This document shows positions 98-60,688 of a DNA stretch of 64,000 nt, piece by piece. The notes under the pieces are model-generated. The model was not told the origin of the DNA. It saw nothing but the letters and a program-made list of their open reading frames with translations, and did not search any database. The position numbers and the translations under genes were made by a program. This DNA is from a virus. Its lineage: Duplodnaviria > Heunggongvirae > Uroviricota > Caudoviricetes. The stretch is from the IMG/VR virus record IMGVR_UViG_2687453522_000001; one strand, given 5' to 3'. Each line of letters begins with the position of its first letter. Position 1 is the stretch's first letter.

Positions 98-175
98 GAT
101 TTTCCCTAATCAATGTTGTGAAGCCTCATTGTAAGATAAGTAACTTGTCACCCCGCCCTGCGGACGGGGTGATTG

Positions 176-2445: not shown

Positions 2446-2801
2446 AGCACCACGTCCTGTGTGATAGTTATATCCCTGATACGAATGGATATTTTCAACT
2501 TATCAAAAGCATCTCCCTCGGCTACTGACAAGCCAGAAATCGGTATGTCAGGTAAATCTACCGTCAGTTTTTGCAACAGCATTGCCTCAACCGCAATTTG
2601 AACATGCGACAAGTTGGTCGGTTCGTGTTTAAACTGCGGTAAAACATTGCCCCATGACGGATCTCCGTATACCTCACCCTGATAAGTGTTTAGCCACTCA
2701 TATAAACGAGCGCCCCAGGCCTCCTCCTGGGACTCATACGTTTTTACGCCGGATAACTCCAGCGTCAGTAAAGGATCAATTTCATTATTGTTGGCCATCA
2801 A
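2442..2801 (-). CDS. small baseplate wedge-like protein
   Basis: 119-aa ORF immediately downstream of the tape-measure-like gene with overlapping stop/start; assignment by position and size. Confidence 0.4.
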   Translation of the reverse strand: MMANNNEIDPLLTLELSGVKTYESQEEAWGARLYEWLNTYQGEVYGDPSWGNVLPQFKHEPTNLSHVQIAVEAMLLQKLTVDLPDIPISGLSVAEGDAFDKLKISIRIRDITITQDVVL

Positions 2802-6493: not shown

Positions 6494-6574
6494 GATCTTA
6501 TCGCCTACCGTTTCGGTTTAAGTTTTTCTTCCAGTTTCTCCAACAGGAAAAACGCATAGGATTCAGTAAGCCTT

Positions 6575-7456
6575 TCAGCGTCCTGAATCGGTATACCCCC
6601 ATACAAAACCAGGTTGGACACTAAGGTCTGATAGCTTTTCAATCCCCACCTGTGGAATGAAGTCGGTAGCCCGAAAGGGCACCCACAGACGGGTATACGC
6701 ACCCTCTGTGGACTCCTTTGTATCCTGGTTTGGGCATTTGTGCGGCGGGAGACGAAGACGCATTTCGCCTTTATCGATGTAGCACGGTAAACCATGTTCG
6801 AGCTTTTCATGAGCCAGCCGGATGTGTGCCGCCAGCTTCATAAATTCAGTATCAATGGCCATCCGTTTGATCGTTTCATAACGACGCTCAGCCTGCTCTT
6901 CACGAGTACCGCTAACATCGTTATAAAGTTCACACTGATAAGCGAATTCCCAAAAACGCAAATCAACGATCGCTTCTTTGAATTCCGCGTCGTCTTCAGG
7001 TGGCAATGCTGCTCGGCGCATCTCCAGCATTTCCATTGCCCAACCATCAAGCGGCACGATACGCCATTGATAAGGCACGCCCTCTACAGACACCTCAATA
7101 TCGTCAATGAACGGTTCCACTTCCAGGACCTGGATATCTTCAGCCAGAGCATTCATATCGCAATCGTAATAATGCTCTTTACCGCAATGTTTACAGGTGT
7201 AGGTAAATGTCTCGATCGGTGTTTCGCGGGAGCCAGTAAATATCCACCATAACGCGGTAATCCGGTCCTGTGCCGTCCATTTCAGTGGATCATGTTTCGC
7301 AGCTTCAGCCAGCAAGGCTTTTAAATACGCTGTTGTCTGCTGTTCTTGTTCCTCCGGTGTTATCGAGTTGAAACGCATCGCATCAGCAATATTTGGCTGA
7401 CGGAACTGGATTAATTCAGTTGGCCGCGATGGTAGCGGGAAAAGGGGTAAAAGCAT
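6575..7456 (-). CDS. tail-module protein of unknown function (Cys-rich CKHCGKEHYYDCDM motif)
   Basis: 293-aa ORF directly upstream of sit on the same strand; possible Zn-binding cluster. Confidence 0.5.
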   Translation of the reverse strand: MLLPLFPLPSRPTELIQFRQPNIADAMRFNSITPEEQEQQTTAYLKALLAEAAKHDPLKWTAQDRITALWWIFTGSRETPIETFTYTCKHCGKEHYYDCDMNALAEDIQVLEVEPFIDDIEVSVEGVPYQWRIVPLDGWAMEMLEMRRAALPPEDDAEFKEAIVDLRFWEFAYQCELYNDVSGTREEQAERRYETIKRMAIDTEFMKLAAHIRLAHEKLEHGLPCYIDKGEMRLRLPPHKCPNQDTKESTEGAYTRLWVPFRATDFIPQVGIEKLSDLSVQPGFVWGYTDSGR

Positions 7457-7470
7457 CCTTGCTCCTTAAT

Positions 7471-8082
7471 TTAAAGCGAAAAACTAAAGCCCAGAAGGGA
7501 AGCTAAAGAACTTGAGGATTGGTTAAACGTGCTGTGCAACGCGAAGGTCATTGGGAATGACTTAAATTCCGTAACCTGATCCCGCGCATAGGTGACATCG
7601 CCGGTAGTGACCGGGAATACCGTCATCTCATTTTCCAGTTTGGTTAAACCGGAGGACAGCAACCGATAAATACGCACATTGAGCAAATATTTAGACGGTA
7701 TATTCCCGGTACCGTCCGGATTGATCACCCGACTTTTTGCCGTCTTAAACCAGTCCAAAACGAGGCCATCAACGGTATCCCTGACCATCATTGTTATCTG
7801 CCCAGGCGAACGCTCCGTTGGCTGAAGGATATTCCCTCCGCCGATTTTAATCGTTTCATATTCGATGCTGTAATCGTGGTAGGTAATGTCTTTAGCAAAG
7901 AAGTCTGCCCCCTCCAGACCATCAACTTCGACAGAGAACTGCCATCCTTGCGCGAACAGCATTTTGTTCATGATGATTGACGTCAGCTTACCAACTTCCC
8001 GCTCACCAACGCCGGAGCCAAATAATGTCGTCGTTAATGCCGAAGATACATAAGACTTTACTGAAGCAACATTAAGCCCCAT
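7471..8082 (-). CDS. tail-module structural protein (tube-like size)
   Basis: 203-aa ORF in the same operon-like block; assignment by position. Confidence 0.45.
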   Translation of the reverse strand: MGLNVASVKSYVSSALTTTLFGSGVGEREVGKLTSIIMNKMLFAQGWQFSVEVDGLEGADFFAKDITYHDYSIEYETIKIGGGNILQPTERSPGQITMMVRDTVDGLVLDWFKTAKSRVINPDGTGNIPSKYLLNVRIYRLLSSGLTKLENEMTVFPVTTGDVTYARDQVTEFKSFPMTFALHSTFNQSSSSLASLLGFSFSL

Positions 8083-8092
8083 ATCAGCCCCC

Positions 8093-8683
<591 letters not shown>

Positions 8684-8853
8684 TTAACCGATTCTACGAG
8701 TAGTCATTTGTTCATTGAGTGGGAATATTGCCGTCCGGGAGTAATATGGTATCATTAAGTTAGAGTAGGTAGTGTAGATGGAATGAGGAGTATCATATGG
8801 TTATCACACAATCAGGTTGCTTTGAGTCAGGTTGTTTTGAGTAAAACAATAAA

Positions 8854-13484: not shown

Positions 13485-14330
13485 ATGCTGGCTAAAGTCA
13501 CTTTCCTGAGCTGTATAACGATGAGCGATTTTACTTTTTCTGGCTATGAATTGGCCTGCTTTGTAACACACTCCGGTCTATCCCGTAGCGCCGGGCATAT
13601 CCTGTCGCAATGTGCAAATCTAGCGGCAACAACCAGTGAATACTTCATTCACAAGCCTCACCGCCTGATCGCGGCAGAAACTGGTTATAGCCAATCAACC
13701 GTCGTTCGTGCATTCCGTGAAGCTGTAAACAAAGGAATTCTGTCTGTAGAGATTGTTATCGGCGATCACCGTGAACGTCGCGCTAACCTGTACCGGTTTA
13801 CACCATCCTTTTTGGCCTTCGCACAACAAGCCAAAAATGCGCTGATTAAAAGCAAATTAAAGATCTCTTCAGCGGCAACCAAGGTTAAAGCTGTTCTCGC
13901 TAAGACATTGTCTTTATTTAATTTTTTATCCACACCCCCATGTCAAAATGATACCCCCTCCCCCTGTCAGGATGACGTGGCAATAAAGAATAAGAAGTCA
14001 CAAGTTAAAAAAACAAAAAGATCAGTTTCCGGCGGTGCCGGAACGACCAGATTCAAAAAATTGACCTCATGGATCGCTGAGGCAAAAGCAAAGGCTGACA
14101 ATCTGCGGTTATCCAAAAAACGCGCTCAAAAACATGAGTTCAAGCAGAAAGTAGAGGCGGCAGCGCGGAAATATGCTTACCTGAAGAACAAGCGTTCTCC
14201 TGATATTAGCGGGGTATCAAACTTCGATAATCTGCCGCATTGCATGACGGTAAACGAAGCTCTTAATGCGGTTTTAGCCAAAAATAAAGATAACGAAAAA
14301 TGGGGTATACCGGCAGGATTCAGAGGGTGA
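13485..14330 (+). CDS. repL: RepL-like lytic replication protein
   Basis: 281 aa directly downstream of kilA, matching the P1 kilA-repL arrangement; assignment by synteny and size. Confidence 0.5.
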   Translation: MLAKVTFLSCITMSDFTFSGYELACFVTHSGLSRSAGHILSQCANLAATTSEYFIHKPHRLIAAETGYSQSTVVRAFREAVNKGILSVEIVIGDHRERRANLYRFTPSFLAFAQQAKNALIKSKLKISSAATKVKAVLAKTLSLFNFLSTPPCQNDTPSPCQDDVAIKNKKSQVKKTKRSVSGGAGTTRFKKLTSWIAEAKAKADNLRLSKKRAQKHEFKQKVEAAARKYAYLKNKRSPDISGVSNFDNLPHCMTVNEALNAVLAKNKDNEKWGIPAGFRG

Positions 14331-20677: not shown

Positions 20678-22405
20678 TTACTCAGAGTCACCAGCATCAA
20701 TCGTGTTACCGGTCAGGAAGTTAATTCCGCCATTTTTTGCCATAGTCAGAGTTACACGGGTGAAGTAGTCAGCACCGTTGCGTGGATGCATATCGTTGAT
20801 AGCCGAACCCCACAGAGTGGTTCGGTTGACTAGTGCCGGGGTGGTCGGATGCTGGAATGGGACAGCCGGGACTGCATCACCAGTTACGAAGCCCGCTTTG
20901 CCCGGATTTTCATCACGGACGTAGCACAGCACATCCATTGGGCTGAACTGGATACCGTCGGCGGTCAGGTTCGTACAAATACCTTCTGGTACTTCGAACA
21001 CTTTGACGTTGCCGAACAGAGTGCCAATGTAGTGGACGTATGGGGTCTGGATGTAATCTTCTGCTGGCTGGAAGAAATCCTTCGGCAATTGTTTGAAGAA
21101 AGATGCCGCATCAGCACCGGCATACATCCCCATCGCACCAGAAGATTTAACACGCTCAATAATACCGCGATATACCGTCTGGAATTTGCCTCGAATGATG
21201 GTTGCCCACACATCAAAGGTCTGGTTAGCTGGTAGTGCAATATCAAAGGAGTCGGTCGCAAGAGTTCGCCAAATCATGATACGAAGACGAAGCATATCTT
21301 GCTCATGGGACAGGTATTCCTTCAGGGTGCGGAACTGTAGGGAGCCAAGATCCAGACCAAATTCACGCTGTGCTTCATACGCCGCCTGTACCGTGTGCTC
21401 AGCCGCGATGACGAACTGGTTTGGGAACAGGGTGTAACTCTTCATTTCGTGGTTGATAAGTGGGATCAGCTCAGGAGCTGCTTCTATATTGATCTCCGCC
21501 TCAATGGCGATCTCAGTGCCTTTATCCGGCGCTTTGGAGAACGACAGGGCAATCTGACCAACGTTGTAATTCAAAGAGCAAGTAACAGTGATTTGTTCGC
21601 CTGCTTTGTTATTGAATGTGTGAAGCAGAGTACCGGAGCCGTTATCAACAACAGACTTAATACGGTTAACGTAGATGTTTGTGCGACCTTTGCGAATCGG
21701 GACATTCTGACCTTCGACATCTTCCATCTTGAAGGTTGCAGTTTTGCTGGTGCCGTCGGAGCTTGCAACCAGCACATAGCGGCGGCGCAACTGGCTGTAC
21801 ACGCCAACGGATTGCATGTCCAGAACATCGCCAATAGCATAGGAGCCAAAAGAAGAACCCGCTACGTTAAAGATTTCATAGATTTCGGACTTGTCACGCG
21901 TAACCGGAATGAATGTACACGCATCAGCGGTAGCTGCCCCCAACTGAACAGGCAGGATCATCGCCAAGAATAAAGGCAGACGCATAACCCCGTCAGAAAC
22001 ACTCATCATCTCTGCCGCGACTGATTCCAGCATCGCTTTATTGGTGGCGTCCATGCTATTGCGGGTGGACTCAATCAGGCAGTTTTCCAGCGTCTGATGG
22101 CAGGAGGCCAGAATTTCCGGACGTGGCATAGATTTATGTGTTGCGGCGTAGTCAGCCAGTGCACTTGCCCACGCTGTAGCGATTTGAGCGGTGGCATTAT
22201 CAGAGATACCCGCAAAAATTGGGTCTTTACGTGCAGCTTCAAGGATAGATGCGGCACGCGCGGCATCATCTTTAATGAATTGGTTATCAGTACCGAACTG
22301 CGCAGTGCTTGCCCAGCCAAGCACAGCTTTAGAGCGTTTTGCGATATCTGCAATACGATTCTGGTATTCGCGTAAGTTACTCAATTTACTCTTCCTTAAA
22401 CACAA
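20678..22405 (-). CDS. major capsid protein candidate
   Basis: 575-aa ORF next to parS-parB as for P1 gene 23; the track start is TTG, so the true start is uncertain. Confidence 0.45.
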   Translation of the reverse strand: MCLRKSKLSNLREYQNRIADIAKRSKAVLGWASTAQFGTDNQFIKDDAARAASILEAARKDPIFAGISDNATAQIATAWASALADYAATHKSMPRPEILASCHQTLENCLIESTRNSMDATNKAMLESVAAEMMSVSDGVMRLPLFLAMILPVQLGAATADACTFIPVTRDKSEIYEIFNVAGSSFGSYAIGDVLDMQSVGVYSQLRRRYVLVASSDGTSKTATFKMEDVEGQNVPIRKGRTNIYVNRIKSVVDNGSGTLLHTFNNKAGEQITVTCSLNYNVGQIALSFSKAPDKGTEIAIEAEINIEAAPELIPLINHEMKSYTLFPNQFVIAAEHTVQAAYEAQREFGLDLGSLQFRTLKEYLSHEQDMLRLRIMIWRTLATDSFDIALPANQTFDVWATIIRGKFQTVYRGIIERVKSSGAMGMYAGADAASFFKQLPKDFFQPAEDYIQTPYVHYIGTLFGNVKVFEVPEGICTNLTADGIQFSPMDVLCYVRDENPGKAGFVTGDAVPAVPFQHPTTPALVNRTTLWGSAINDMHPRNGADYFTRVTLTMAKNGGINFLTGNTIDAGDSE

Positions 22406-22499
22406 GGCACTTGTGTGAATCCCTTTTCGGAAGAGATTTTATTGAAAGTCACTTGTTGACTTTCTCGTGACAAGCAATTTTTTTATTTTTTTTCGGGAG

Positions 22500-22610: not shown

Positions 22611-23612
22611 TTAAGGCTTCGGCTTTTTATCGAGGCTCTTTCTAAGGATATGCCCAATCATCCTGTCGAGTTCTTCCTGTAGCTCTTTTGAAAGTCGATT
22701 AAACTCATAAGAAAATGCACGGCCTTTCACGCGCTTCCTTGCAAAGCGATCCTTGTCCTCAAATTTCCATAATTCAGTAACTACGGACTTATCTTTAGAA
22801 CCTTTATCCGTGAGTAGTGAGGCTTCCTTTGTTATCAAGCGCAGGATTTTATTTTTAACTTCATCTTCGGCCATTTCTTCAATGGATAAGATGTCGTTTA
22901 TTTCCGGGGATATGTTTTGAATAAGCTGATCAAACTCTAAATTCTTGTTCCCCATTTCGTCGCCAACAGCACAAAGCGTTTTGTAGTCCGAAAAGGTTAA
23001 TTCCGACTGCACAGGGAAAAGGGCGACTAATTCTTCCGGAGCACTCGCTGCCTGGAGAGCACGCGTGACTTTCGCCTGAGACAGCCCTTCCTTGGCTGCA
23101 ATATCCTTCTGACTCATCCCATCATTTTTCATTCGCATCAAACGCAGACCTATTTCTCGAATGCTGTGCTGCAATGCTGTCTGAACGTCTTTCGCTAAAT
23201 TTTGCGCTTCCTGAACGCTGATCTCCTGGTCCGTGACTAAAACCCGCAACCCTACGTTCTCTAAGATGGCAGAAGCTCGACGCCGGGAACCATCCAAAAT
23301 TTCAATTTTCCCTGTAGCCCGTCTAACACCTATTGCAGGGTAAAATTGCTGATGCTTAATAGTGCTTCGGATACTTTTTAATGATTTTGGCGTAAGAGAT
23401 GCCTGGTCACGCCCGTTGTTATGCTGATCAACAAAGGTATCGCGTTCTACCTGGTTCGGAGGTATTACCTCTTCAATAAATGTGGCCTGGCGACCAGTTG
23501 ATAACTTGAATACCTGCTCGACTCGATCGCCAGAGGCTGAAGAACTATCAAATCCGCTTAATATTGAAGGATTAAGGGTTCGCCCAATTGTTGGTCTGTT
23601 TTTCTTTGACAT
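22611..23612 (-). CDS. parB: ParB partition protein
   Basis: 333 aa downstream of parA; ParB-like N-terminal region and HTH segment. Confidence 0.85.
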   Translation of the reverse strand: MSKKNRPTIGRTLNPSILSGFDSSSASGDRVEQVFKLSTGRQATFIEEVIPPNQVERDTFVDQHNNGRDQASLTPKSLKSIRSTIKHQQFYPAIGVRRATGKIEILDGSRRRASAILENVGLRVLVTDQEISVQEAQNLAKDVQTALQHSIREIGLRLMRMKNDGMSQKDIAAKEGLSQAKVTRALQAASAPEELVALFPVQSELTFSDYKTLCAVGDEMGNKNLEFDQLIQNISPEINDILSIEEMAEDEVKNKILRLITKEASLLTDKGSKDKSVVTELWKFEDKDRFARKRVKGRAFSYEFNRLSKELQEELDRMIGHILRKSLDKKPKP

Positions 23613-23628
23613 GGGGGTTTCTTACTCC

Positions 23629-24825
23629 TCAGTTAGATCTGATAAATTCAATACGGTCAAAAACTGCTTTAGCAAAATCTTCCGCGGCAATTCGCGCGTT
23701 CTTCAATGCATCAGCACTACCAACATACGTTGCCGGGTTAGCTGAAATAACAGTGTCAAAAGACTCGCCGCAACGTTCAAAACCGTCAAGGCGAGGGAGG
23801 ACGACATCGAGCATATCCCCACCGAACACTTCTTTAGCCAAGCTATGGCAATACTTATGATCTGCCTTGTTACTCAACTTGGACATAAAACCAATGTTAG
23901 TCGCAAGCTGGCACTCGCAGCCTTCATCCGAAATGAGTTTCACCAACTCAGGAAGGCGGGCAACGTATTTAAGCGATGAGTGGAAATCGACAGTTGCTGG
24001 CGGCAGAGGTGTAAACAGTATATTGGCCGAGGCCAAAGCATTTTTCAGGAAGGCGTCAAGGTGAGGACCACTATCAACGAGGATAAAGTCATAATCGCTC
24101 TTCAGCTTATCAATCACATTTTCTTTCAGGACAGCATGGATGTTCTGACCCGGTAGATGCTCATTGCACAGCTCTCTCCAATCGGATGCAATAAAGGCAT
24201 CGTCAATCGACGCAGGCATAACGTCAACCCCAGGTACAACAGAAGGAACAATAAACTCCTCTAACAGCTCTTCACGGCTTACATTCTGCAACATAGCCTG
24301 TGCAGATGTTGCGTTTACGATACCAATAGAGTGTTTATGGCTTAAAAACATCGTTGCTGAAGATTGCGGATCAAGGTCAATAACCAGAATCCTTAAATCT
24401 TCCATCAGAAGATGAGGGTGGGCACGCATTGCATGCGCCAGAGAAACCGTCGATACAGTTTTTGACACACCGCCTTTAAGATTGGAGATGAAAATCACAT
24501 ACGCTTCGCTGTAGCGATCCCGGTATTTTGGCACTCCGCGATGTTCATATATGTCAATGATGTTCTGAATTGACATCGCATATTTCATTGAAGAGCCAGC
24601 AGGGCGTTTATCGAAAACATAGCCCTTTTCTTCCATTTCACTTACGGCATAGTCAACGTTCGCTCGAGTCAGTAGAGGCAATTTTGCCAGTGCCGCTTTC
24701 GCATAGACCTGGTAAAACTCGTTCGCGTGTAGCTCATCCTTTTGCAACTGTACTTGTTCAGTCAGAACATTGAGCATTCTGTTTGCTCTTTGAGCAACCT
24801 TGTGAAGCTGGCTGGAATCACTCAT
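23629..24825 (-). CDS. parA: ParA partition ATPase (long N-terminal type)
   Basis: 398 aa; KGGVSKT Walker A after a roughly 100-aa regulatory N-terminal extension. Confidence 0.85.
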   Translation of the reverse strand: MSDSSQLHKVAQRANRMLNVLTEQVQLQKDELHANEFYQVYAKAALAKLPLLTRANVDYAVSEMEEKGYVFDKRPAGSSMKYAMSIQNIIDIYEHRGVPKYRDRYSEAYVIFISNLKGGVSKTVSTVSLAHAMRAHPHLLMEDLRILVIDLDPQSSATMFLSHKHSIGIVNATSAQAMLQNVSREELLEEFIVPSVVPGVDVMPASIDDAFIASDWRELCNEHLPGQNIHAVLKENVIDKLKSDYDFILVDSGPHLDAFLKNALASANILFTPLPPATVDFHSSLKYVARLPELVKLISDEGCECQLATNIGFMSKLSNKADHKYCHSLAKEVFGGDMLDVVLPRLDGFERCGESFDTVISANPATYVGSADALKNARIAAEDFAKAVFDRIEFIRSN

Positions 24826-25098
24826 CGAAAGTCATCCTTTATGCTGTATTTTTGAATTTAATTAAAAATGCTGCATAAAATAATAATGTATGCGTAGATG
24901 CTTGTACATAGCATTCTCTGCATGTTTACTCCTTTGCCAAGTGTGTCACAACATGCTTTGGCATCCTCCACGTATAAAGGACGCGGATTTCTTCTATGTT
25001 CAGGTTGTAGCCTGAATCATTTTGGTGATTTCCTGCTTCAACGGGCAGCCAGGCTTCACTCTCTATCAACTGGTGAGAACGGCTTGCCCGGCAGCTTC

Positions 25099-25382
25099 GA
25101 TGTGTGCTGGAGGGAGAATAAAAGTCTAAGATGTGCGATAGAGGGAAGTCGCATTGAATTATGTGCTGTGGAGGGATCGCTGGTATCAAATATGTGTGCT
25201 GGAGGGAAAGACAGAGAATTACATGTGCGCTGGAGGGAAAAACTGATGGACAGATGTGTGCTGGAGGGAAAGTCTGGGCAAACTGCGGGGCGTCCCCCTC
25301 CAGCGCACATCAAAAACAGGAAATTGGACAAGCCTTCCCGGCAGCACACATTTTTTGAATGCAGCTGCCCTCCAGCACACAC
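25099..25382. repeat. incA-like iteron array (about nine 19-bp iterons, both orientations)
   Basis: Repeats of GATGTGTGCTGGAGGGAAA and its reverse complement CCCTCCAGCACACA, immediately downstream of repA. Confidence 0.8.
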
Positions 25383-26243
25383 TTATTCGGGGAGTTTCAG
25401 CTTTGGATTGCGAGAATGGACGATTACAAAACTTTCCCGGCCTTTCTTCTCAATTGAACAGTCGAGATAGCCGATTGTTTTAAGCTGTTCTATCGCTTTC
25501 TTAATGATACGGTTTTGCTCGCCAACAGCTGACTGCAAAGCCAGGCGCTCACGGATTCGCGCGAACGATAGCGGCAACGGGTTCTGCGGAAGGCTTTCGA
25601 TGAAAGTGTAAATGGCTTGTGCAGCTTCTTTCTTCGGAAGGGCACGCAAGGCGTGGTGTTGCAACAGAACGCGATAATCAAGCTGGAACAGCTCCCACAA
25701 CTTCGAATCAGCCTCCAGCTCTATCAGATCAAGGTCAGCATCAAAACGCCCGACCTTCAGCAGACCAGTCTGATAGCCGCCTTTAGCATCTTTTCCGCGC
25801 TTAAAAGCGATACCCTTGTTACGCAAGCGTCCAAGTGATTCATGAATGGTTAAACGCAGTTTCGCATCCAGACGTTTTGAGGGGAAACCACAGGCTTTAG
25901 CGAATTCCTGAAACGATAACTGGATGGTGTTTGAGGACAAGCCGTATTTGCTGAACGCGTAGATGACACCGATCCACGTTTTGAAATCAGTATCCATATC
26001 GAGTCGAGGACCGGTGATTTTAATATCATCGTAACCCTCGGCTTTAGCTATCTCCAGCTGGGAAAACGCTTTGGTGGCATCAATCTCTTTACTTTCTCCT
26101 TTGCTCTTTGATGGCTTCGGCACGAATACCCCCAAGCGCATCAACGCTACAGGCTGCACAGTGTTGTTTGAATTAACTGTTAGTTCTTTTGCCTTACTTT
26201 CAATGTCTGCGTAAAGAATATCGGAGATAAATGATTGATTCAT
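25383..26243 (-). CDS. repA: RepA plasmid replication initiator
   Basis: 286-aa ORF bracketed by iteron arrays on both sides. Confidence 0.85.
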   Translation of the reverse strand: MNQSFISDILYADIESKAKELTVNSNNTVQPVALMRLGVFVPKPSKSKGESKEIDATKAFSQLEIAKAEGYDDIKITGPRLDMDTDFKTWIGVIYAFSKYGLSSNTIQLSFQEFAKACGFPSKRLDAKLRLTIHESLGRLRNKGIAFKRGKDAKGGYQTGLLKVGRFDADLDLIELEADSKLWELFQLDYRVLLQHHALRALPKKEAAQAIYTFIESLPQNPLPLSFARIRERLALQSAVGEQNRIIKKAIEQLKTIGYLDCSIEKKGRESFVIVHSRNPKLKLPE

Positions 26244-26299
26244 GTTACTTTTTCCGAATTGTGTGGATAGTTTTTATAAGTGGTGATAACTACCCAGGC

Positions 26300-26403
26300 T
26301 TTCCCGTCAGCACACATCCTATATCCCGCCAGCACACATTAGCAACCCGTCAGCACACATTTTTATCCCTCCAGCACACATCGTTTTCCCTCCAGCACAC
26401 ATC
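26300..26403. repeat. incC-like origin iterons (five direct copies)
   Basis: Five repeats of CC(G/T)(T/C)CAGCACACAT at about 21-bp spacing upstream of repA. Confidence 0.8.
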
Positions 26404-26442
26404 GCGATACACTTCTAAGCCAGACGTGGCGCGGCCTGCAAC

Positions 26443-26520
26443 GATCAGGGATCTATATGGATCTAATTGGGATCTGTATGGACCTGATTATTGGATCTAC
26501 CCAGTGGATAATGTGGATAA
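26443..26520. promoter_or_regulatory. origin elements: cluster of five GATC sites and two tandem DnaA boxes
   Basis: GATC at 26443, 26450, 26460, 26471 and 26494; AGTGGATAA and TGTGGATAA at 26503-26520; another TGTGGATAG near 26268. Confidence 0.6.
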
Positions 26521-26569
26521 GTGAAAAACCGGCCACTGAGGACCGATTTCTGTGAAGAGTTGAAGCGAA

Positions 26570-26971
26570 TTAGTTGTCGTTTTCCGTACCTACTTCTTCG
26601 ATCAACAAACTACTTGTATAGATGCGTAACGTATCACCTTTGTAGAGGAATTGATAACCAACACCTCCTATGGCAGGGAGGTCGGGGAACATTTCAGAAG
26701 CAACCCCAGAGCAAATCACGGCGATACAGTCATCCCGCTGTACATCCTTACGCTCTGTACTCAAAGTTTGCTCTTCCCCGATTGCCTTTGTCATCTCCTC
26801 ATCTTCGTACGCAACAGGGATATATTCAATCGCATCAGGCGTTTTGATACCCAGTTCTTCAGCAATCTCGAACGCCTGTTTAAATTGATCTGACCCAGGA
26901 TATCCAACGGTAATACTCTCAATTTCGAACAAAGAAGTAGCGTTGTTTATTTCTTGTTTAACCGCAAACAT
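26570..26971 (-). CDS. hypothetical protein
   Basis: 133-aa ORF. Confidence 0.5.
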   Translation of the reverse strand: MFAVKQEINNATSLFEIESITVGYPGSDQFKQAFEIAEELGIKTPDAIEYIPVAYEDEEMTKAIGEEQTLSTERKDVQRDDCIAVICSGVASEMFPDLPAIGGVGYQFLYKGDTLRIYTSSLLIEEVGTENDN

Positions 26972-27041
26972 GTTGTTTGTCCTTAGTGGCTTCCTGCCAA
27001 AGTAAAGTCATGAGTGTTGATATTACGATTTCTACAGTTGA

Positions 27042-27401
27042 TTAAATCTGCTCGCTGAGCTTTTGCTTCAGCAGATAACCTTCCAGCGGCCAGATTTTCT
27101 CAATGGCGTTCTTACGGGCCACCTTACGGCCAATCTCCGCGTCGAAATTTTCAGGGCTGGCACAGGCGCTTTCCCCGGTAACAATGAATCCATTGCACAG
27201 CACCAAGACACAGATGGTCAGGCTACGCGTAGAGGGATGAACAGACAGCACCTCACGAACGCCTTCGTGCGCAGCGCGAATGCCGTCAAAAGCTGTGAAA
27301 TAATGCTCTTCGGCAATCACACTCTCGATGTGATCAGGAGTCAGGCGTGGTGCTGTTTTGCCTTTGGCCAGAATCTCTTTTTCAATTTCCATATCGGACA
27401 T
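27042..27401 (-). CDS. hypothetical protein
   Basis: 119-aa ORF with plausible start context. Confidence 0.5.
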   Translation of the reverse strand: MSDMEIEKEILAKGKTAPRLTPDHIESVIAEEHYFTAFDGIRAAHEGVREVLSVHPSTRSLTICVLVLCNGFIVTGESACASPENFDAEIGRKVARKNAIEKIWPLEGYLLKQKLSEQI

Positions 27402-27412
27402 AGTTTTTCCTT

Positions 27413-27745
27413 TTAGTTACCGCTGATAGCACGGTTGTAATCATTAACGTTGCGATTCTTCCTGTTAATCCCCTTCAGCATCGTTTCTGTATCGAGGATA
27501 TACGCTGGCAGATCATCAAAATATTCACTGCTAAACTCTGGCATTCTGCACATAAATGCACTTTTGGGGGCAGGGTGGTTAACCTTTGTCGGCGTCGGCG
27601 TTAAATTCGCTGATCGACTCCCGGAGCAACCGCTGAGTGTCAGCAGGAATGCGCTGGCGAACATTACCCGCCGCAACCAGTTGTTTCTGAACTTCAGCTT
27701 TTCGTTCCATTTGCCTGTCAGCATATTTGGCTTGTTCTGATTCAT
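27413..27745 (-). CDS. outer-membrane lipoprotein (o-spanin-like), overlapping the upstream gene out of frame
   Basis: 110 aa; lipobox LTLSGC after a signal-like segment; start lies inside the 3' end of the gene at 27579-28001. Confidence 0.45.
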   Translation of the reverse strand: MNQNKPNMLTGKWNEKLKFRNNWLRRVMFASAFLLTLSGCSGSRSANLTPTPTKVNHPAPKSAFMCRMPEFSSEYFDDLPAYILDTETMLKGINRKNRNVNDYNRAISGN

Positions 27746-28001
27746 TTTTCACTTCCTGGCTGTGAAAATGTTGCTCTGCTTTGTTCATCGTCTCAATGGT
27801 CTGGTTAAGATCCATTATTGACTTATCACGTTCCTTAACAGCCTGATCAAGACTGCCAATTTTCTCCATGGCTTGCTTTAGCTGATGACGTTCCCATGCA
27901 AACCCAGCACCAACAAGTGCGCAAATCAGAACAAGAACACCAGTAGCAGCAAGTTTCTCCTTCAAAGACAAAGCTGTTTTTAACGTAGAAAAGAATGACA
28001 T
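27579..28001 (-). CDS. membrane-anchored coiled-coil protein (i-spanin-like)
   Basis: N-terminal TM helix (VLVLICALVGAGFAW) then charged helical region; start set at the MSFFSTLK Met. Confidence 0.45.
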   Translation of the reverse strand: MSFFSTLKTALSLKEKLAATGVLVLICALVGAGFAWERHQLKQAMEKIGSLDQAVKERDKSIMDLNQTIETMNKAEQHFHSQEVKNESEQAKYADRQMERKAEVQKQLVAAGNVRQRIPADTQRLLRESISEFNADADKG

Positions 28002-28040
28002 GTCTTCCTCCTGAAGAAAAATTATCAATGAAGTCCTTTG

Positions 28041-28829
28041 TTACTGTGCCGCTTTGTTTAATTCATCAAGAACAGAATCAGGAACCAAAGCGGCAACTGC
28101 GCTGGCTGTGCTGACCTTATTTGCTGATGCTTCCGCAAGAGCGGTACCGATAGCATGGTTATAAGCAGTTATGGCTACGTTGGCGCTTTCATTCGCTCGT
28201 TCATACTGCTGTTGTAACGCAGTTGTGGGCGCTGTTGTCTGGTTGAAAACAACCCCAAACTGTTCAGTTGCTACTTTCAGAGATTCAATTTGCTCTTCTG
28301 TTAGTGCTGGTGGGGGAGTGGCAGTGCCGCCGCCTGAACCAGAGCCTGACGAGCTTCCTGAGCCAGTGTTAAGGGTCTGGTTAATCTCCCCCATAGCAGC
28401 GACTAAACTTGTTGTATTAAGCGCGTTAACAGCGTCCTCAAGCGATTTAGTAATATTCACATCACCAATGGCAATAGAGATCGGCAGTTCTGAAACTTCT
28501 CGCTCATTAGCACGGCAGTAAACATCCCAACCAATATCGAGTTGAAGCAGCATTGACAGATCTGCATAACCAGCCAACAGGTCCGCGTGCTTAGTTGCCA
28601 GTTCTCCAATGTTCGTTAAGCCGGTTGTGGTTGTTCTGATCGTTGAAACATAGCTGGTAATAGTGTCGGGATAGACAATTGTATCCAGAATTAATCCGGT
28701 CAATTCTTCTGCAAGCAGTTTTGCTGTGTTAGCACTGTTTCGTGCCGATGTTATGGCACCAGGTGTTTTCATCCCACCGGCGGCGGCCAATTTTTTATAT
28801 GCGGATAACTGGTAGTCTTTTTCCAGCAT
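28041..28829 (-). CDS. hypothetical protein with Gly/Ser-rich linker
   Basis: Start set at the MLEKDYQ Met; GSGSSSGSGSGGG linker mid-protein. Confidence 0.45.
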   Translation of the reverse strand: MLEKDYQLSAYKKLAAAGGMKTPGAITSARNSANTAKLLAEELTGLILDTIVYPDTITSYVSTIRTTTTGLTNIGELATKHADLLAGYADLSMLLQLDIGWDVYCRANEREVSELPISIAIGDVNITKSLEDAVNALNTTSLVAAMGEINQTLNTGSGSSSGSGSGGGTATPPPALTEEQIESLKVATEQFGVVFNQTTAPTTALQQQYERANESANVAITAYNHAIGTALAEASANKVSTASAVAALVPDSVLDELNKAAQ

Positions 28830-28837
28830 GATATCTC

Positions 28838-29122
28838 CTAACTTACCTGAACCAGGCCGTCTCCGGATGCTACGGTAGATCCGCATGAAACAGGGTCACC
28901 AACGCATACGATCCCTTTACCATTGACGGTAAACCATGCCCTGGTTGATATAGCTTGCCCACCGTGCGTACTGTTTCCATCGGTATGCTGTGCATATTGC
29001 TTACCATCAACTAACACTTCGACTCCGTTGACTTTAAGTAGTGGTTCACTCTCTACAGGAGGCCTGGATGGGAATCCTCCGTGCCCCGAACAAATGCTGT
29101 CTTTTGTTGCAATACTTGCCAC
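28838..29122 (-). CDS. small Gly/Val-rich protein, possibly PAAR-like spike tip
   Basis: 94 aa with VNG.G and GD.V.CG motifs; family assignment tentative. Confidence 0.35.
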   Translation of the reverse strand: MASIATKDSICSGHGGFPSRPPVESEPLLKVNGVEVLVDGKQYAQHTDGNSTHGGQAISTRAWFTVNGKGIVCVGDPVSCGSTVASGDGLVQVS

Positions 29123-29202
29123 GTCATCACCAATTATTTGCTCTGGTTTTCGTTATTTTAACTTAGGTTACTTGTGGTCTATATGGTGTTAACTATTGCA
29201 TG

Positions 29203-29219
29203 ATTGCTCTAATAAATAT
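29203..29219 (+). promoter_or_regulatory. C1-type operator upstream of the hrdC-dmt operon
   Basis: ATTGCTCTAATAAATAT. Confidence 0.55.
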
Positions 29220-29290
29220 TGTTTTTTATGTCGTGTTTTCGGTACCATTCAGCCATCGCCCTTCAATGGGTATTTGTTTGGAGTCGTCAG

Positions 29291-29575
29291 ATGCAGATGG
29301 AGCTAATAAGCCGCAAAGAGTTCGATAGCCGTGTAACCAGCGGTGAACTCGACAACTTGCAGGCTATCAAGGTGAAAGAAGGCTTTTGCCTCATTGGGAA
29401 TCAGAGCGGAACAAATCGCGTTTTTATGCTTCGCCGTACGGATTTGAAGCCATTTGTCTGGAAGAACGAAATTGGTCCCAGCTCATACGCTCAAACTAGG
29501 GGGTGCCTCAACCTGGCCTTTTTCTACAAAAACGAGCTTTCTGTGGTTGATATTCAAGGGTTACAACATGTTTAA
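29291..29575 (+). CDS. hypothetical protein, first gene of the hrdC-dmt operon
   Basis: Start set at the ATG 8 nt after GGAG; stop overlaps the rdgC-like start (ATGTTTAA). Confidence 0.45.
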
Positions 29576-30473
29576 GCACTGGAAAAACATTACTATTTAT
29601 AAACTTTCTCGTGAAGCGGATCTGACCGACTTAGAAGATAAAAAGAAAATGATCCTTTTCACGCCATGCGGTAGTCAGGATATGGCCAAGTTCGGTTTTG
29701 TATCTCCATTTGGTGATAATTCCGAAGTTATCGCTATGCATGGAAATGGTTTTATCCTTGTTGAAGCAAAGCGCGAAACAAAAATCCTTCCCCCGCCGGT
29801 TATCCAGCGAGCTATTCAAGAAAAAATTGAAAAACTCGAGCAAGAACAAGCGCGTAAACTGAAGAAAACAGAGAAGGACTCCCTGAAAGACGAAGTTCTG
29901 CATTCTCTTCTGCCACGGGCTTTTTCAAAGTTTTCTGTTATCCAGGCGATCTACGACGGTTCAACTAAACGTATCTATATCAATGCCAGCGCGCGGCAGG
30001 CAGAGGATATGCTCGCGCTTATGCGTAAATCTCTGGGTTCTCTTCCTGTTGTTCCCCTAAGTGTTGAAAATCCCATTGAATTAACGCTGACCGACTGGGT
30101 ACGTGATGGTAGTGCTCCACAGGGATTTCAAATGGGGGATGCGGCAGAACTTAAGGCAGTGCTTGAGGATGGCGGTATTGCCCGAGTGAAAAAGCAGGAT
30201 TTGGGAAGCGATGAAATTTCCACACACCTGGAAGCTGGCAAGCTCGTTACTAAGTTGGCACTCGACTGGCAGAACCGCATTAAATTTACACTGGACCATA
30301 ACTTCAGCCTTACCAGCGTCAAATTTGCGGATGAATTGCTTGAGCAGAACTCTGATATTGATAGTGAAGATGTTGCGCAGCGACTGGACGCAGATTTCTT
30401 CCTGTTGACCAGTGAAATTTCGTGCCTGGTTGATGCTCTGGTAAATGCCCTTGGTGGAGAGGCTAAGCAGTGA
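29568..30473 (+). CDS. hrdC: RdgC-like recombination-associated protein
   Basis: N-terminus [16 protein letters not shown]...[17 protein letters not shown] resembles E. coli RdgC; the track ORF start at 29454 is an N-terminal over-extension. Confidence 0.8.
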
Positions 30474-32734
30474 AAGAGCTGTGCTATGGATCTGTTTGCA
30501 GTGGAATTGAAGCCGCGAGTATTGCCTGGGAACCGTTGGGTATGCGTCCGGCGTGGTTTGCTGAAATCGAGCCTTTTCCATCTGCCGTTCTTGCGCACCG
30601 CTGGCCCCATGTCGCCAACCTTGGCGACATGACAAAACTTGCCAAAAAAGTCCTGGCTGGGGAAATCGAATCCCCTGATGTGCTCGTCGGGGGTACGCCT
30701 TGTCAGGCATTCAGTATCGCGGGCTTACGTGGTGGGCTTGATGATGAACGCGGCGCGCTAACTTTGAAGTATGTGGAGCTTGCAAATGCAATTGACGACA
30801 AACGGTCTGAGTCCTTCCTCAAACCGACAGTTATCGTCTGGGAAAATGTCCCAGGAGTCCTGTCATCGGCAGATAACGCCTTCGGATGTTTCCTTGCCGG
30901 ATTGGCTGGAGAAGATGCGCCATTTGAACCAGGTGATCGACCTGAATCAGGAAAAAGTAACGCGTTCTGGCGGTGGGATGGCAAAACCGGTTGCCATGCT
31001 CCAAAGTGGCCGCAGTGTGGTTGTATTTATGGACCGCAGCGAAAGGTGGCCTGGAGAATCCTTGATGCCCAATACTTCGGAGTGGCACAACGACGCCGAC
31101 GCGTGTTTGTTGTCGCAAGTGCTCGAACAGACTTCGATCCCGCAACGGTACTTTTTGAGTTCGAAGGCGTGCGCCGGAATATTGCGCCGAGCCGAAAAAA
31201 GAAGGAAATCGCTTCCGCCATTACTGCAAATGGCGCTGCAATCAGTGGCGAAAGCCTAAATCCATGCCTACACGCTGGCATGTCCCCCGGTATGAAATCG
31301 ACGAAATCCGTAAACGGTTTCAGGATGGCGGCATTTGGGGAATATATTGACGATGAAACCGCATTGACAGTAAAGGCAAGAGACTTTAAAGATGCCACTG
31401 ACCTTGCCGTTTTTAGCAGCACTGGAGCAGGTTTTTGGTCAGAAGGGCATGGTACATTGCGGGCGCGTGAGCAAGAAAGCCATGAGCATCTTGTTACATT
31501 GGCTTTTCCTGAGCGTATGAGTGGTACACAACATGCAGCAACTAAGAATACTTCACCATCTCTAATGGCTCAAAATCCAACTGCTGTTTGCTATGAAGTA
31601 AGAAACGAAGAAGTAGCTGTCCGCCGTCTTACCCCTGTCGAATGTGAGAGACTTCAAGGTTTTCCTGATGGGCATACATTGATCCCTACGGAAAAGCGTA
31701 AAAAAGTTAATTCAGATGAACTGGCATATCTGCACAATCACTATCCAGATTTAAGCGAAGAAGAGGCCGCAATGCTTGCAGCTGACGGACCGCGTTACAA
31801 AGCGATCGGCAATAGTATGGCGATACCAGTAATGCGCTGGATTGGCGATCGGATTGCCAAGGCTGCATGTCGGCAGAAGGAAGGGAGTGAAACAAAAGAG
31901 CGAAAAGTTAAACCAGCGGCAGAATTCGAACGGTCCATATTCAAATGGGCTGGTGGAAAATTTGGTGTTCTGGAACAAATCTTTCGCTATTTGCCAGAAG
32001 GGAAGCGCCTGATTGAACCTTTCGTTGGTGGCGGAGCTGTCTTCATGAATGCCGGATACCAGGAAAATCTGCTAAATGATGTGAATGCTGACCTGATTAA
32101 CTTTTACAAGACTCTGCAACGCGAGACGCATTCACTTATCACACTGGCGCATCGTTTCTTCCAGGACTACAACACACAGGAAGGATACCTGGCAGTACGG
32201 AATGCGTTTAACAAACAAGTCTATGATGATTTACATCGCGCAGCGGCGTTTTTGTTCCTGAACCGACATTGTTTTAACGGATTGACGCGTTACGACCAGG
32301 CCGGTGAGTTCAATGTCGGTTACGGGAAGTATAAAACTCCGTATTTCCCATTACAGGAGATGGAAGCCTTCCTCGGTGCGGAAGGGCGGTCTGAGTTTGT
32401 ATGCGGTGATTTTGCTGCGGTGATTGAAGCTGCCGGAGAAGGAGATGTCATCTTTTGCGATCCGCCGTATGAACCGCTCCCAAATACAGAGGGATTCACG
32501 AACTATTCCGGTCATGACTTTAAGTTTGAAGAGCAAAAACGCCTGGCGTCTCTGTTGACGGATGCTCATCGCCGAGGTGCAAAGGTTCTCATTACTAACA
32601 GTGGCGCGCCAAACATCAGAGAACTTTATCAGGACAGTGGCTTCAGAGTGGAACCTCTTTTTGCCAGACGTTCTGTGTCTTGTAAGGGGGACACTCGAGG
32701 TGTTGCTCATGACGTTATAGCAATATTGCTCTAA
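30470..32734 (+). CDS. dmt: bifunctional DNA methyltransferase: N-terminal C5-cytosine MTase fused to C-terminal Dam-like N6-adenine MTase
   Basis: 754 aa; [11 protein letters not shown] and ENVPG (C5-MTase) in the N-terminal half; FVGGGAV and FCDPPYEP in the C-terminal half. Confidence 0.85.
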
Positions 32735-34358: not shown

Positions 34359-35206
34359 AAGTACTCAACGAGCTAAGGCAGTTTTATCCTCTTGATGAGC
34401 TTCTCAGGGCTGCGGAGATACCGCGCAGTACGTTTTATTATCATCTAAAGGCTCTCAGCAAGCCTGACAAGTATGCGGACGTTAAAAAGCGTATTAGTGA
34501 GATTTATCACGAGAATAGAGGCCGATACGGATACCGTAGGGTAACGCTGTCTCTTCATCGAGAAGGGAAACAGATTAACCATAAAGCTGTTCAGCGCCTG
34601 ATGGGAACCCTCTCACTTAAAGCAGCGATTAAGGTCAAGCGATACCGCTCTTACAGAGGAGAGGTAGGGCAAACCGCCCCTAATGTTCTCCAAAGAGATT
34701 TCAAGGCTACGCGGCCAAACGAGAAGTGGGTTACCGATGTTACTGAATTTGCAGTCAATGGGCGCAAGCTGTATTTGTCTCCAGTAATAGATCTCTTCAA
34801 CAACGAAGTTATTTCTTACAGCCTTTCGGAAAGACCAGTGATGAACATGGTTGAGAATATGCTCGATCAGGCATTCAAAAAGCTTAATCCTCACGAGCAT
34901 CCTGTTCTGCACTCTGACCAGGGATGGCAGTATCGTATGAGAAGATATCAAAATATCCTTAAAGAACATGGTATTAAACAAAGCATGTCCAGAAAAGGCA
35001 ATTGTCTGGATAATGCTGTGGTGGAGTGTTTCTTTGGAACCTTAAAGTCGGAGTGTTTTTATCTTGATGAGTTCAGTAATATAAGCGAACTGAAGGATGC
35101 TGTTACGGAATATATTGAATACTACAACAGCAGAAGAATTAGCCTGAAATTAAAAGGTCTGACTCCAATTGAATATCGGAATCAGACCTATATGCCTCGT
35201 GTTTAA
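34355..35206 (+). CDS. insK: IS150 transposase OrfB (InsK), DDE catalytic domain
   Basis: 283 aa in the -1 frame relative to OrfA, overlapping its 3' end. Confidence 0.9.
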
Positions 35207-39780: not shown

Positions 39781-42927
<3,147 letters not shown>

Positions 42928-60602: not shown

Positions 60603-60688
60603 TTGATTGCTTGCCCGTTCCGGGCCTTTTGACATGTGACTTTCGTTACCCTCGCGTCAAAAAGAGTTTTATACGAAAGGAAGCATAA

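What the first reader, a model, noticed from the sequence alone, without database searches (positions are those of the whole stretch)
27413..28028. Overlapping membrane-anchored coiled-coil protein and embedded lipoprotein gene resembling a spanin pair, far from any lysis cassette
A protein with an N-terminal TM helix and charged helical periplasmic domain (27579-28001) has a lipoprotein gene (lipobox LTLSGC) starting inside its 3' end in another frame. This is the classic Rz/Rz1-type architecture, here located beside replication and maintenance genes rather than an endolysin.
Basis: partly seen in the sequence, partly recalled or inferred. Interest (0 to 1): 0.4.

Follow-up and report, generated by a model that had tools for sequence, protein, structure and literature searches.

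The report
Phage P1 spanin genes ppfA/mlp
The overlapping membrane-protein and lipoprotein genes are real and conserved, but they are the already-catalogued ppfA/mlp spanin pair of a P1-like phage-plasmid, predicted to break the host outer membrane at the end of lysis, so the finding is ordinary.

Summary
On the minus strand, ppfA (27579-28001, 140 aa) encodes an N-terminal transmembrane helix followed by a long charged helical domain. mlp (27413-27745, 110 aa) starts inside ppfA in the +1 frame, overlaps it by 167 nt and runs 166 nt past its stop. Mlp carries the lipobox LTLSG|C with Ser at +2.

The window is a P1-like phage-plasmid. PpfA is 139/140 and Mlp 107/110 identical to phage P1's proteins. 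The pair is already listed as P1's overlapped two-component spanin (Summer 2007, cited by Bednarek 2022; Kongari 2018 Table S1). RefSeq labels mlp "Rz-like spanin".

Both frames persist in every diverged relative examined. The mlp-only segment shows third-position substitution bias (p = 1e-9). Random synonymous recoding of ppfA recreates a lipoprotein signal in under 1% of trials.

The architecture is "overlapped", not "embedded". The pair lies directly downstream of the baseplate genes upfC and upfB, not only beside the replicon.

The spanin function of this pair has never been tested experimentally. It is not a detectable sequence homologue of lambda Rz/Rz1. Novelty: already known. Interest: low.

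The parts
27579..28001 (-). ppfA, the i-spanin candidate (140 aa): type II inner-membrane protein with a helical periplasmic domain
   Evidence: ORF and translation; 139/140 identical to P1 PpfA; phrog_89 'Rz-like spanin' E 1.2e-25; AF2 helices 13-110 and 120-139; Kongari 2018 Table S1 'OIS gp064'
27897..27953 (-). Coding region for the PpfA transmembrane helix (residues 17-35, LAATGVLVLICALVGAGFA)
   Evidence: Kyte-Doolittle 19-residue maximum of 2.35
28007..28012 (-). Shine-Dalgarno AGGAGG of ppfA, 5 nt before ATG 28001
   Evidence: Read from the sequence; same SD listed by Kongari 2018 Table S1
27413..27745 (-). mlp, the o-spanin candidate (110-aa precursor, 71-aa mature lipoprotein), in the +1 frame of ppfA
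   Evidence: 107/110 identical to P1 Mlp; phrog_30284 'Rz-like spanin' E 3e-76; RefSeq P1 product 'Rz-like spanin'; Kongari 2018 'OOS gp063' with LipoP cleavage at position 39
27579..27745 (-). 167-nt dual-coding overlap: PpfA residues 86-140 and Mlp residues 1-55, covering the signal peptide, lipobox and the first mature residues
   Evidence: Frame offset 256 nt = +1; nucleotide identity to diverged relatives is 64-80% here versus 59-63% in the ppfA-only part; synonymous-recoding test
27626..27637 (-). Lipobox codons L-S-G-C (Mlp residues 37-40); Cys40 is the predicted lipidation site
   Evidence: variants LNGC, LNAC, LSAC, LVAC and LSSC occur at the same column in relatives
27754..27757 (-). 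Shine-Dalgarno AGGA of mlp, 8 nt before ATG 27745
   Evidence: same SD in Kongari 2018 Table S1; the start Met is conserved 38-39 residues before the Cys in all ten sequences aligned
28041..28886 (-). upfB, the gene directly upstream on the same strand; baseplate 'tripod' protein in P1 (context, not part of the spanin)
   Evidence: 90% identical to P1 UpfB; cryo-EM assignment in PMC12810830
28838..29122 (-). upfC, PAAR-type tail spike tip and first gene of the same-strand cluster (context)
   Evidence: PF05488 and phrog_281; 99% identical to P1 UpfC; cryo-EM shows it resembles T4 gp5.4
29155..29173 (-). Weak candidate promoter upstream of upfC (AAGTAACCT-N4-TAAAAT; 2 mismatches to the P1 late-promoter pattern). 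Speculative.
   Evidence: a -10-like hexamer sits at the same alignment column in diverged relatives; no match with 1 mismatch or fewer in 27.4-29.5 kb

Best explanation
This is the two-component spanin of a P1-like phage-plasmid: ppfA encodes the i-spanin and mlp the o-spanin, in the 'overlapped' gene architecture. Inferred mechanism, by analogy with lambda Rz/Rz1 and T4 PseT.3/PseT.2: PpfA inserts into the inner membrane through its N-terminal helix and extends a helical domain of about 100 residues into the periplasm. Mlp is exported, lipidated at Cys40 and sorted to the outer membrane (Ser at +2). It probably dimerises through its single conserved periplasmic Cys (C66). The two C-terminal regions would bind to form a bridge across the periplasm, held in check by the peptidoglycan mesh. 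Once the P1 holins (LydA and others) and the SAR-endolysin Lyz destroy the wall, the complexes would collapse and fuse the inner and outer membranes, completing lysis. Shown here: the anatomy, near-identity to P1's genes, and conservation of both frames. Inferred: topology, lipidation, complex formation, membrane fusion and late timing.
For: Identity: the window is syntenic with P1 at 95-99%. PpfA is 139/140 and Mlp 107/110 identical to P1's proteins. Anatomy: TMD plus a long helix, a break, then a second helix; SPII-type signal with lipobox and Ser at +2; +1-frame overlap of 167 nt. Family calls: phrog_89 at 1e-25 and phrog_30284 at 3e-76, both 'Rz-like spanin'. Literature: Kongari 2018 Table S1 lists the pair as an overlapped spanin; Bednarek 2022 cites Summer 2007 for the identification; RefSeq labels mlp 'Rz-like spanin'. 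Conservation: the +1 lipoprotein frame is kept in 12 of 12 diverged loci, including ones matched only at profile E 1e-21 and 3e-8. Each single-coding segment has third-position bias in its own frame. The lipoprotein signal is not a by-product of the PpfA sequence (P = 0.0002-0.007). mlp and ppfA are among 21 'extremely conserved' genes in 77 P1-like phage-plasmids. Context: the upstream same-strand genes upfC and upfB are baseplate proteins, consistent with expression in the lytic cycle. A weak distant relative (L100) has a holin-like 3-TM protein, then an i-spanin-like protein, then a separate lipoprotein. CRISPRi non-essentiality for plaque formation fits the conditional phenotype known for spanins.
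Against: No experiment has tested the function; Bednarek 2022 says so explicitly, and no later test turned up in the library. There is no significant sequence similarity to lambda Rz/Rz1 (BLASTP E 0.26, and for Rz1 only the signal peptide aligns). No Pfam hit, and P2 LysB scores far below its cut-off. No canonical Lpa-dependent late promoter lies upstream, whereas P1's annotation predicts only sigma-70 promoters for ppfA, so late timing is unproven. Within the overlap, the +1 frame is no better conserved overall than the unused +2 frame. The 39-residue signal peptide is unusually long; Kongari notes 'Too long signal sequence' and no PROSITE hit.
Confidence: 0.86

Rival explanations
1. The pair is a genuine membrane protein plus lipoprotein, but it serves the plasmid-prophage rather than lysis. 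It would be an envelope function expressed in the lysogen from its own sigma-70 promoters, for example exclusion or envelope modification. This is close to the original P1 annotations 'possible periplasmic function' and 'membrane lipoprotein precursor'.
For: The pair lies about 1.2 kb from oriR/repA. P1's annotation predicts sigma-70 promoters P1ppfA and P2ppfA and no late promoter. No late-promoter match with 1 mismatch or fewer was found upstream. Both genes are non-essential in the CRISPRi screen. No sequence homology to lambda Rz/Rz1. Function is untested.
Against: A type II inner-membrane helical protein whose 3' end carries a +1-frame outer-membrane lipoprotein gene is the signature used to define spanins. 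Both proteins fall in PHROG spanin families. The upstream same-strand genes are virion baseplate parts. P1 has no other spanin candidate in the published survey. Non-essentiality on plates is also what is expected for spanins.
Confidence: 0.08
2. Only ppfA and a short downstream ORF are real. On this view the lipoprotein start inside ppfA is an artefact, and the true downstream product is the 45-46-aa protein starting at internal Met65 that several GenBank records and gene callers annotate as 'Rz1'.
For: MH422554 and gene calls on L093, L095 and L098 give a 45-46-aa ORF. Within the overlap, the +1 frame is not better conserved than the +2 control. +1-frame openness is unsurprising (P 0.5-0.8) in P1-type and Salmonella-type sequences.
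Against: The truncated product has no signal peptide or lipobox, so it could not be an Rz1-type lipoprotein. The start Met at -38/-39, the uncharged hydrophobic core and the lipobox Cys are kept in every lineage aligned. A good SD precedes ATG 27745 and none precedes Met65. Openness is improbable in the two most diverged lineages (P 0.036 and 0.017). The full signal arises in under 1% of synonymous recodings.
Confidence: 0.03
3. The overlapping frame is a chance ORF with a chance lipobox.
For: Alternative-frame ORFs of 116-117 aa occur by chance in neighbouring genes.
Against: Conservation across all relatives, third-position bias at p = 1e-9 in the mlp-only segment, and the recoding test.
Confidence: 0.01

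Closest known systems
Phage P1 ppfA (gp064) / mlp (gp063), the P1 overlapped two-component spanin (Summer et al. 2007; Kongari et al. 2018 SpaninDB)
   Same: Essentially the same genes: 139/140 and 107/110 residues identical, with the same overlap, SD sequences, lipobox TLSG|C and flanking upfB/upfC.
   Different: Four amino-acid substitutions in total. Downstream of mlp this element carries an extra Phage_gp49_66 gene and a UpfA only 54% identical to P1's.
Lambda Rz/Rz1, the prototype spanin (embedded architecture)
   Same: A type II inner-membrane helical protein plus a Pro-rich outer-membrane lipoprotein encoded in the +1 frame of the same DNA. The presumed function is membrane fusion after wall degradation.
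   Different: No significant sequence similarity and different PHROG and Pfam families. The gene is overlapped, not fully embedded. Mature Mlp is 71 aa with a conserved C-terminal domain, versus 40 aa for Rz1. PpfA has no periplasmic Cys, whereas Rz has two. The pair is not adjacent to holin or endolysin genes.
P2 LysB/LysC, the prototype of the overlapped architecture
   Same: Overlapped gene arrangement. There is a weak LysB profile hit (TIGR03495, E 0.0013).
   Different: The score of 19 bits is far below the 92.75 cut-off. In P2 the pair lies within the lysis cassette.
T4 PseT.3/PseT.2 (separated spanins)
   Same: The cysteine pattern is similar: the i-spanin has no periplasmic Cys and the disulfide potential lies only in the o-spanin. 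From my own knowledge, T4's spanin genes are also unlinked from its holin and endolysin genes, so unlinked spanin genes have precedent.
   Different: The T4 genes are separated, not overlapping, and there is no sequence similarity.

Membership tests
Two-component spanin, overlapped class (architectural definition of Summer 2007 / Kongari 2018) | i-spanin: N-terminal transmembrane domain (type II) with a mainly alpha-helical periplasmic domain | tested here: met
   KD maximum 2.35 at residues 17-35; charged remainder; AF2 helices 13-110 and 120-139, pLDDT 71
Two-component spanin, overlapped class (architectural definition of Summer 2007 / Kongari 2018) | o-spanin: lipoprotein signal with a lipobox Cys and no Asp at +2 (outer-membrane sorting) | tested here: met
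   LTLSG|C with Ser at +2; Ser at +2 in the ten sequences aligned, and a lipobox Cys followed by Ser also visible in the more distant L096-L099; LipoP cleavage at 39 reported by Kongari, with no PROSITE hit and a note 'Too long signal sequence'
Two-component spanin, overlapped class (architectural definition of Summer 2007 / Kongari 2018) | The o-spanin gene starts inside the i-spanin gene in another frame and extends beyond its stop | tested here: met
   +1 frame, 167-nt overlap, 166 nt beyond the ppfA stop
Two-component spanin, overlapped class (architectural definition of Summer 2007 / Kongari 2018) | At least one periplasmic Cys in either subunit, for an intermolecular disulfide | tested here: met
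   Mlp C66 within the invariant AFMCRMPE motif, followed by F or Y; PpfA has none
Two-component spanin, overlapped class (architectural definition of Summer 2007 / Kongari 2018) | Both genes co-conserved in relatives | tested here: met
   12 of 12 diverged loci; codon-position bias; recoding test
Two-component spanin, overlapped class (architectural definition of Summer 2007 / Kongari 2018) | Function: required for outer-membrane disruption; complements lambda Rz-am Rz1-am | not testable with these tools
   Bednarek 2022 states it was not verified for P1; the CRISPRi screen shows only non-essentiality for plaque formation
Two-component spanin, overlapped class (architectural definition of Summer 2007 / Kongari 2018) | [quoted passage not shown] | not testable with these tools
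   No multimer prediction or biochemistry was available
Lambda Rz / Rz1 sequence families (Pfam Rz and Rz1 models; phrog_13 / phrog_3198) | Significant sequence match to the family profile or to lambda Rz/Rz1 | tested here: not met
   No Pfam hit at E below 0.01 other than spurious coiled-coil matches. Lambda Rz and Rz1 fall in phrog_13 and phrog_3198, whereas this pair falls in phrog_89 and phrog_30284. BLASTP E is 0.26 for Rz; for Rz1 it is 0.006 but covers only the signal peptide.
P2 LysB (NCBIfam TIGR03495) | Score above the curated cut-off | tested here: not met
   19 bits against a cut-off of 92.75
P1 PpfA/Mlp orthologue group (PHROG 89 / 30284; Kongari family 'P1') | Near-identity and synteny with P1 ppfA/mlp | tested here: met
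   99% and 97% identity; upfC-upfB-ppfA-mlp synteny

The most novel reading that the evidence does not exclude
The P1 spanin pair may not be under the canonical Lpa late-promoter circuit. It could be transcribed with the baseplate spike-tip and tripod genes, or from constitutive sigma-70 promoters next to the plasmid replicon. If so, the proteins might already be present in lysogens and have a second role in the envelope, with the conserved, unusually long and basic 39-residue Mlp signal peptide acting as a regulatory feature.
Probability: 0.07. Interest if true: 0.45.

Novelty: already known. Interest (0 to 1): 0.1.

Why it matters
It matters little as a discovery, because the gene pair, its architecture and its unlinked position in P1 are already published and catalogued. 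There are three small points of value. First, the comparative data here give independent support for a functional call that remains untested. Second, widespread annotation errors are flagged: a truncated 46-aa 'Rz1' lacking the lipobox, 'endopeptidase Rz' labels, and swapped i-/o-spanin labels in one paper. Third, it is still not known how and when P1's spanin operon is transcribed.

Tried and rejected
1. Pfam and NCBIfam scans gave nothing significant for either protein.
2. A Foldseek search of the AF2 PpfA model against BFVD found no match at E below 1, as expected for a long single helix.
3. The late-promoter search (pattern built from six annotated P1 late promoters) recovered 9 sites in the window against 0.87 expected, but none upstream of upfC, upfB or ppfA. 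Only a 2-mismatch candidate exists at 29155-29173, and at 3 mismatches the pattern is at chance level.
4. The generic sigma-70 and terminator scan was at or below the shuffle expectation.
5. Testing whether the +1 frame is better conserved than the unused +2 frame within the overlap gave no difference. The PpfA frame dominates there, so this argument was dropped.
6. +1-frame openness given the PpfA sequence is uninformative for P1-type and Salmonella-type sequences (P 0.5-0.8) and informative only for the two most diverged lineages.
7. In the recoding test, three real sequences with Asn at position -2 failed my arbitrary hydrophobicity threshold of 1.5.
8. The genome-contig scan returned only 3 loci, all near-identical. 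The first viral-contig scan was saturated by near-identical P1 relatives.
9. Summer et al. 2007 is not held in the library, so it is cited only through Bednarek 2022.
10. The P1vir RNA-seq paper and the P1 mutagenesis paper do not mention these genes. A search for 'ppfA' alone returned only unrelated acronyms.
11. The exhaustive HMMER search found few relatives outside P1-like elements; most weak hits are long coiled-coil proteins.

Full report
**What the replicon is.** The 64-kb window is a P1-like phage-plasmid (genus Punavirus).
- The stretch 26500-29200 matches P1, P7, SJ46, RCS47 and related records at 95-99% identity.
- Window 23501-26535 and 27409-32200 align with P1 59889-68142 at 97-99%. 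Window 1-8745 aligns with P1 38191-46663.
- The neighbouring 286-aa ORF (25383-26243, minus strand) corresponds to P1 repA, with the oriR iterons next to it.

**Checking the observation.**
- ppfA most likely starts at ATG 28001, preceded by AGGAGG. The TTG at 28028 only marks the longest possible ORF.
- The 140-aa product has one strongly hydrophobic segment at residues 17-35. The rest is highly charged and has no periplasmic cysteine.
- AlphaFold2, run on a 20-sequence alignment, predicts one long helix (13-110), a break at 111-119, and a second helix (120-139). Mean pLDDT is 71.
- mlp starts at ATG 27745 with an AGGA Shine-Dalgarno 8 nt upstream. It lies in the +1 frame of ppfA, overlaps it by 167 nt and continues 166 nt past the ppfA stop.
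- The Mlp precursor has a long basic n-region, an 11-residue hydrophobic core, the lipobox LTLSG|C (Cys40) and Ser at +2. The mature protein is 71 aa with six prolines and one further cysteine, C66.
- In the terms used by the field this is the "overlapped" architecture, not the "embedded" one.

**Is it more than chance?** ORF length alone is not evidence, because antisense ORFs of 116-117 aa occur by chance in the two neighbouring genes.
- Protein searches found PpfA homologues down to 47-65% identity on contigs of about 90-98 kb from Salmonella, Cronobacter, Klebsiella and Citrobacter.
- An exhaustive HMMER search added two more distant full-length relatives, P0083 and P0089.
- I obtained DNA for 12 diverged loci: L088-L095 and L096-L099.
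- In all of them the +1 frame is open for 110-127 codons and the +2 frame is closed.
- All carry the lipoprotein signal: a hydrophobic core followed by LSGC, LNGC, LNAC, LSAC, LVAC or LSSC, then Ser.
- Among the ten sequences aligned, the only Met present in every one lies 38-39 residues before the Cys.
- The mature protein keeps the motifs NLTPTP, AFMCRMPEF, EYFDDLPAY and INRKNRNVN.

Variable alignment columns by codon position (positions 1, 2, 3 of the named frame):

| Segment | Frame | Pos 1 | Pos 2 | Pos 3 | Fisher p (pos 3 vs pos 1+2) |
|---|---|---|---|---|---|
| ppfA-only | ppfA | 40/86 | 33/85 | 75/85 | 6.5e-13 |
| mlp-only | mlp | 22/55 | 14/55 | 46/56 | 1.3e-9 |

So each single-coding segment is under purifying selection in its own frame.

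**Controls inside the overlap.** The lipobox is encoded by the same nucleotides as PpfA's conserved RIPADTQRLLRES motif, so I checked whether the Mlp features come for free.
- Overall +1-frame amino-acid identity in the overlap (0.40-0.55) is no higher than in the unused +2 frame (0.36-0.58). PpfA dominates the constraint there and the signal-peptide n-region drifts.
- Keeping the +1 frame open is unsurprising given the PpfA sequence in P1-type and Salmonella-type elements (P 0.5-0.8). It is improbable in the two most diverged lineages (P 0.036 and 0.017).
- Recoding ppfA with random synonymous codons yields a complete signal (Met, uncharged hydrophobic core, lipobox, open frame) in only 0.02-0.7% of trials per lineage.
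- The synonymous sites of ppfA therefore carry information that specifies the Mlp signal peptide. The overlapping gene is real.

**What it is.** PpfA is 139/140 and Mlp 107/110 identical to P1's proteins.
- PHROGs assigns PpfA to phrog_89 (E 1.2e-25) and Mlp to phrog_30284 (E 3e-76), both described as "Rz-like spanin".
- RefSeq P1 labels mlp "Rz-like spanin". Several GenBank records label the pair Rz/Rz1.
- Kongari et al. 2018 (PMC6139136) Table S1 lists P1 as an overlapped two-component spanin with gp064 as i-spanin and gp063 as o-spanin.
- That table gives the same SD sequences, lipobox TLSG, LipoP cleavage at position 39, "Too long signal sequence", no periplasmic Cys in the i-spanin and one in the o-spanin.
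- Bednarek et al. 2022 (PMC9025707) credit the identification to Summer et al. 2007. They note that the genes partially overlap, lie in an operon unlinked to the other lysis genes, and have not been verified experimentally. Their text swaps the o- and i- labels.
- mlp and ppfA are among 21 "extremely conserved" genes in 77 P1-like phage-plasmids (PMC9603915).
- Both were scored non-essential in a genome-wide CRISPRi screen (PMC10695390). From my own knowledge of lambda Rz mutants, spanins typically show only a conditional phenotype, so this is compatible.

**Context.** "Far from any lysis cassette" is correct.
- tblastn with P1 Lyz and LydA-E finds nothing in the window.
- In P1 those genes lie at 20.0-20.9 kb and 30.4-31.5 kb, against 63.4-63.9 kb for mlp/ppfA.

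"Beside replication genes" is only half the picture.
- The two genes directly upstream on the same strand are upfC (a PAAR-type spike tip) and upfB. Cryo-EM of the P1 virion identifies these as the baseplate spike tip and "tripod" (PMC12810830).
- The spanin pair therefore ends a cluster that begins with virion structural genes, which fits expression in the lytic cycle.
- The same upfC-upfB-ppfA order is kept in every full-length relative.
- A weak distant relative (L100, profile E 1.4e-4) shows a holin-like three-TM protein, then an i-spanin-like protein, then a separate 92-aa lipoprotein with lipobox LPGC. This suggests a lysis context but is too weak to weigh heavily.

**Expression, unresolved.**
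- A pattern built from six annotated P1 late promoters finds 9 sites in the window against 0.87 expected. None lies upstream of upfC, upfB or ppfA.
- One 2-mismatch candidate sits 33 nt upstream of upfC at 29155-29173. A -10-like hexamer is conserved at that column in relatives. This is only a lead.
- P1's own annotation predicts sigma-70 promoters for ppfA.

**Mechanism.** By analogy with characterised spanins, PpfA and Mlp would form a bridge between the inner and outer membranes that is restrained by the peptidoglycan mesh. After holin and SAR-endolysin action, the bridge would fuse the two membranes. The steps of topology, lipidation, complex formation and fusion are all inferred, not shown.

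**Comparison with known families.** The pair works like lambda Rz/Rz1 in architecture but is not a detectable member of those sequence families.
- It falls in different PHROGs from lambda Rz and Rz1, and BLASTP gives E 0.26 for Rz.
- For Rz1, only the signal peptide aligns. There is no Pfam hit.
- P2 LysB scores 19 bits against a cut-off of 92.75.
- Differences from lambda: overlapped rather than embedded; a larger mature o-spanin with a conserved C-terminal domain; no periplasmic Cys in the i-spanin; and genes unlinked from the holin and endolysin genes.

**Verdict.** Interest is low. The residual open points are the lack of any functional test and the unknown transcriptional control of the operon.

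Noticed in passing
window 28041-29122 (-): upfB and upfC, directly upstream of the spanin pair on the same strand, are P1 baseplate proteins: UpfC is a PAAR-type spike tip like T4 gp5.4 and UpfB is a trimeric 'tripod' (PMC12810830). Their ORFs overlap by 49 nt (28838-28886). UpfB is only 90% identical to P1's, while UpfC is 99% identical.
   Followed up: partly
window 26570-27401 (-): Between mlp and oriR this element differs from P1. It has an extra 119-aa Phage_gp49_66 (PF13876) gene at 27042-27401 and a UpfA homologue only 54% identical to P1's at 26570-26971. The same arrangement is seen in a Cronobacter-type relative (L093). The repA-upfA region is a known variable hotspot and an insertion site for blaCTX-M-55 in phage JL22 (PMC9603915).
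   Followed up: partly
window 29155-29220: The divergent control region between upfC and uhr/dmt contains the conserved C1 operator (ATTTATTAGAGCAAT, about 29204-29220, P1 Odmt). It also holds a degenerate late-promoter-like sequence (AAGTAACCT-N4-TAAAAT) 33 nt upstream of upfC. Salmonella-type relatives have TAATGACAA-N4-TACAAT at the same place. Whether this drives the upfC-upfB-ppfA-mlp cluster is unknown.
   Followed up: partly
L002 (MH422554) 1505-1645; L093 4449-4589; L095 3049-3186; L098 6467-6607: Public records and automatic gene calls often annotate a truncated 45-46-aa 'Rz1' that starts at internal Met65 and lacks the signal peptide and lipobox. Other records call PpfA 'endopeptidase Rz' or 'outer membrane lytic protein'. 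Bednarek 2022 swaps the o-spanin and i-spanin labels for ppfA and mlp.
   Followed up: yes
L005 (JAFAFU010000017.1): A 5.9-kb contig binned as 'MAG: Bacillota bacterium' encodes a PpfA 100% identical to this window's. This is almost certainly a mis-binned or contaminating enterobacterial P1-like fragment.
   Followed up: no
window 128-146, 8691-8709, 13485-13503, 22436-22454, 42857-42875, 44562-44580 (-); 22374-22392, 34806-34824, 60634-60652 (+): Nine matches (1 mismatch or fewer) to the P1 Lpa-type late-promoter pattern, against 0.87 expected by chance. The first two correspond to P1 LPs and LPsit. The others were not mapped to named P1 promoters.
   Followed up: no
window 27413-27745 (-), Mlp residues 1-39: The Mlp signal peptide is unusually long (39 residues, with an n-region of about 26 basic residues). 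Its start Met is the only Met conserved across all ten aligned sequences, so the length seems real rather than a mis-called start. Its significance is unknown.
   Followed up: partly
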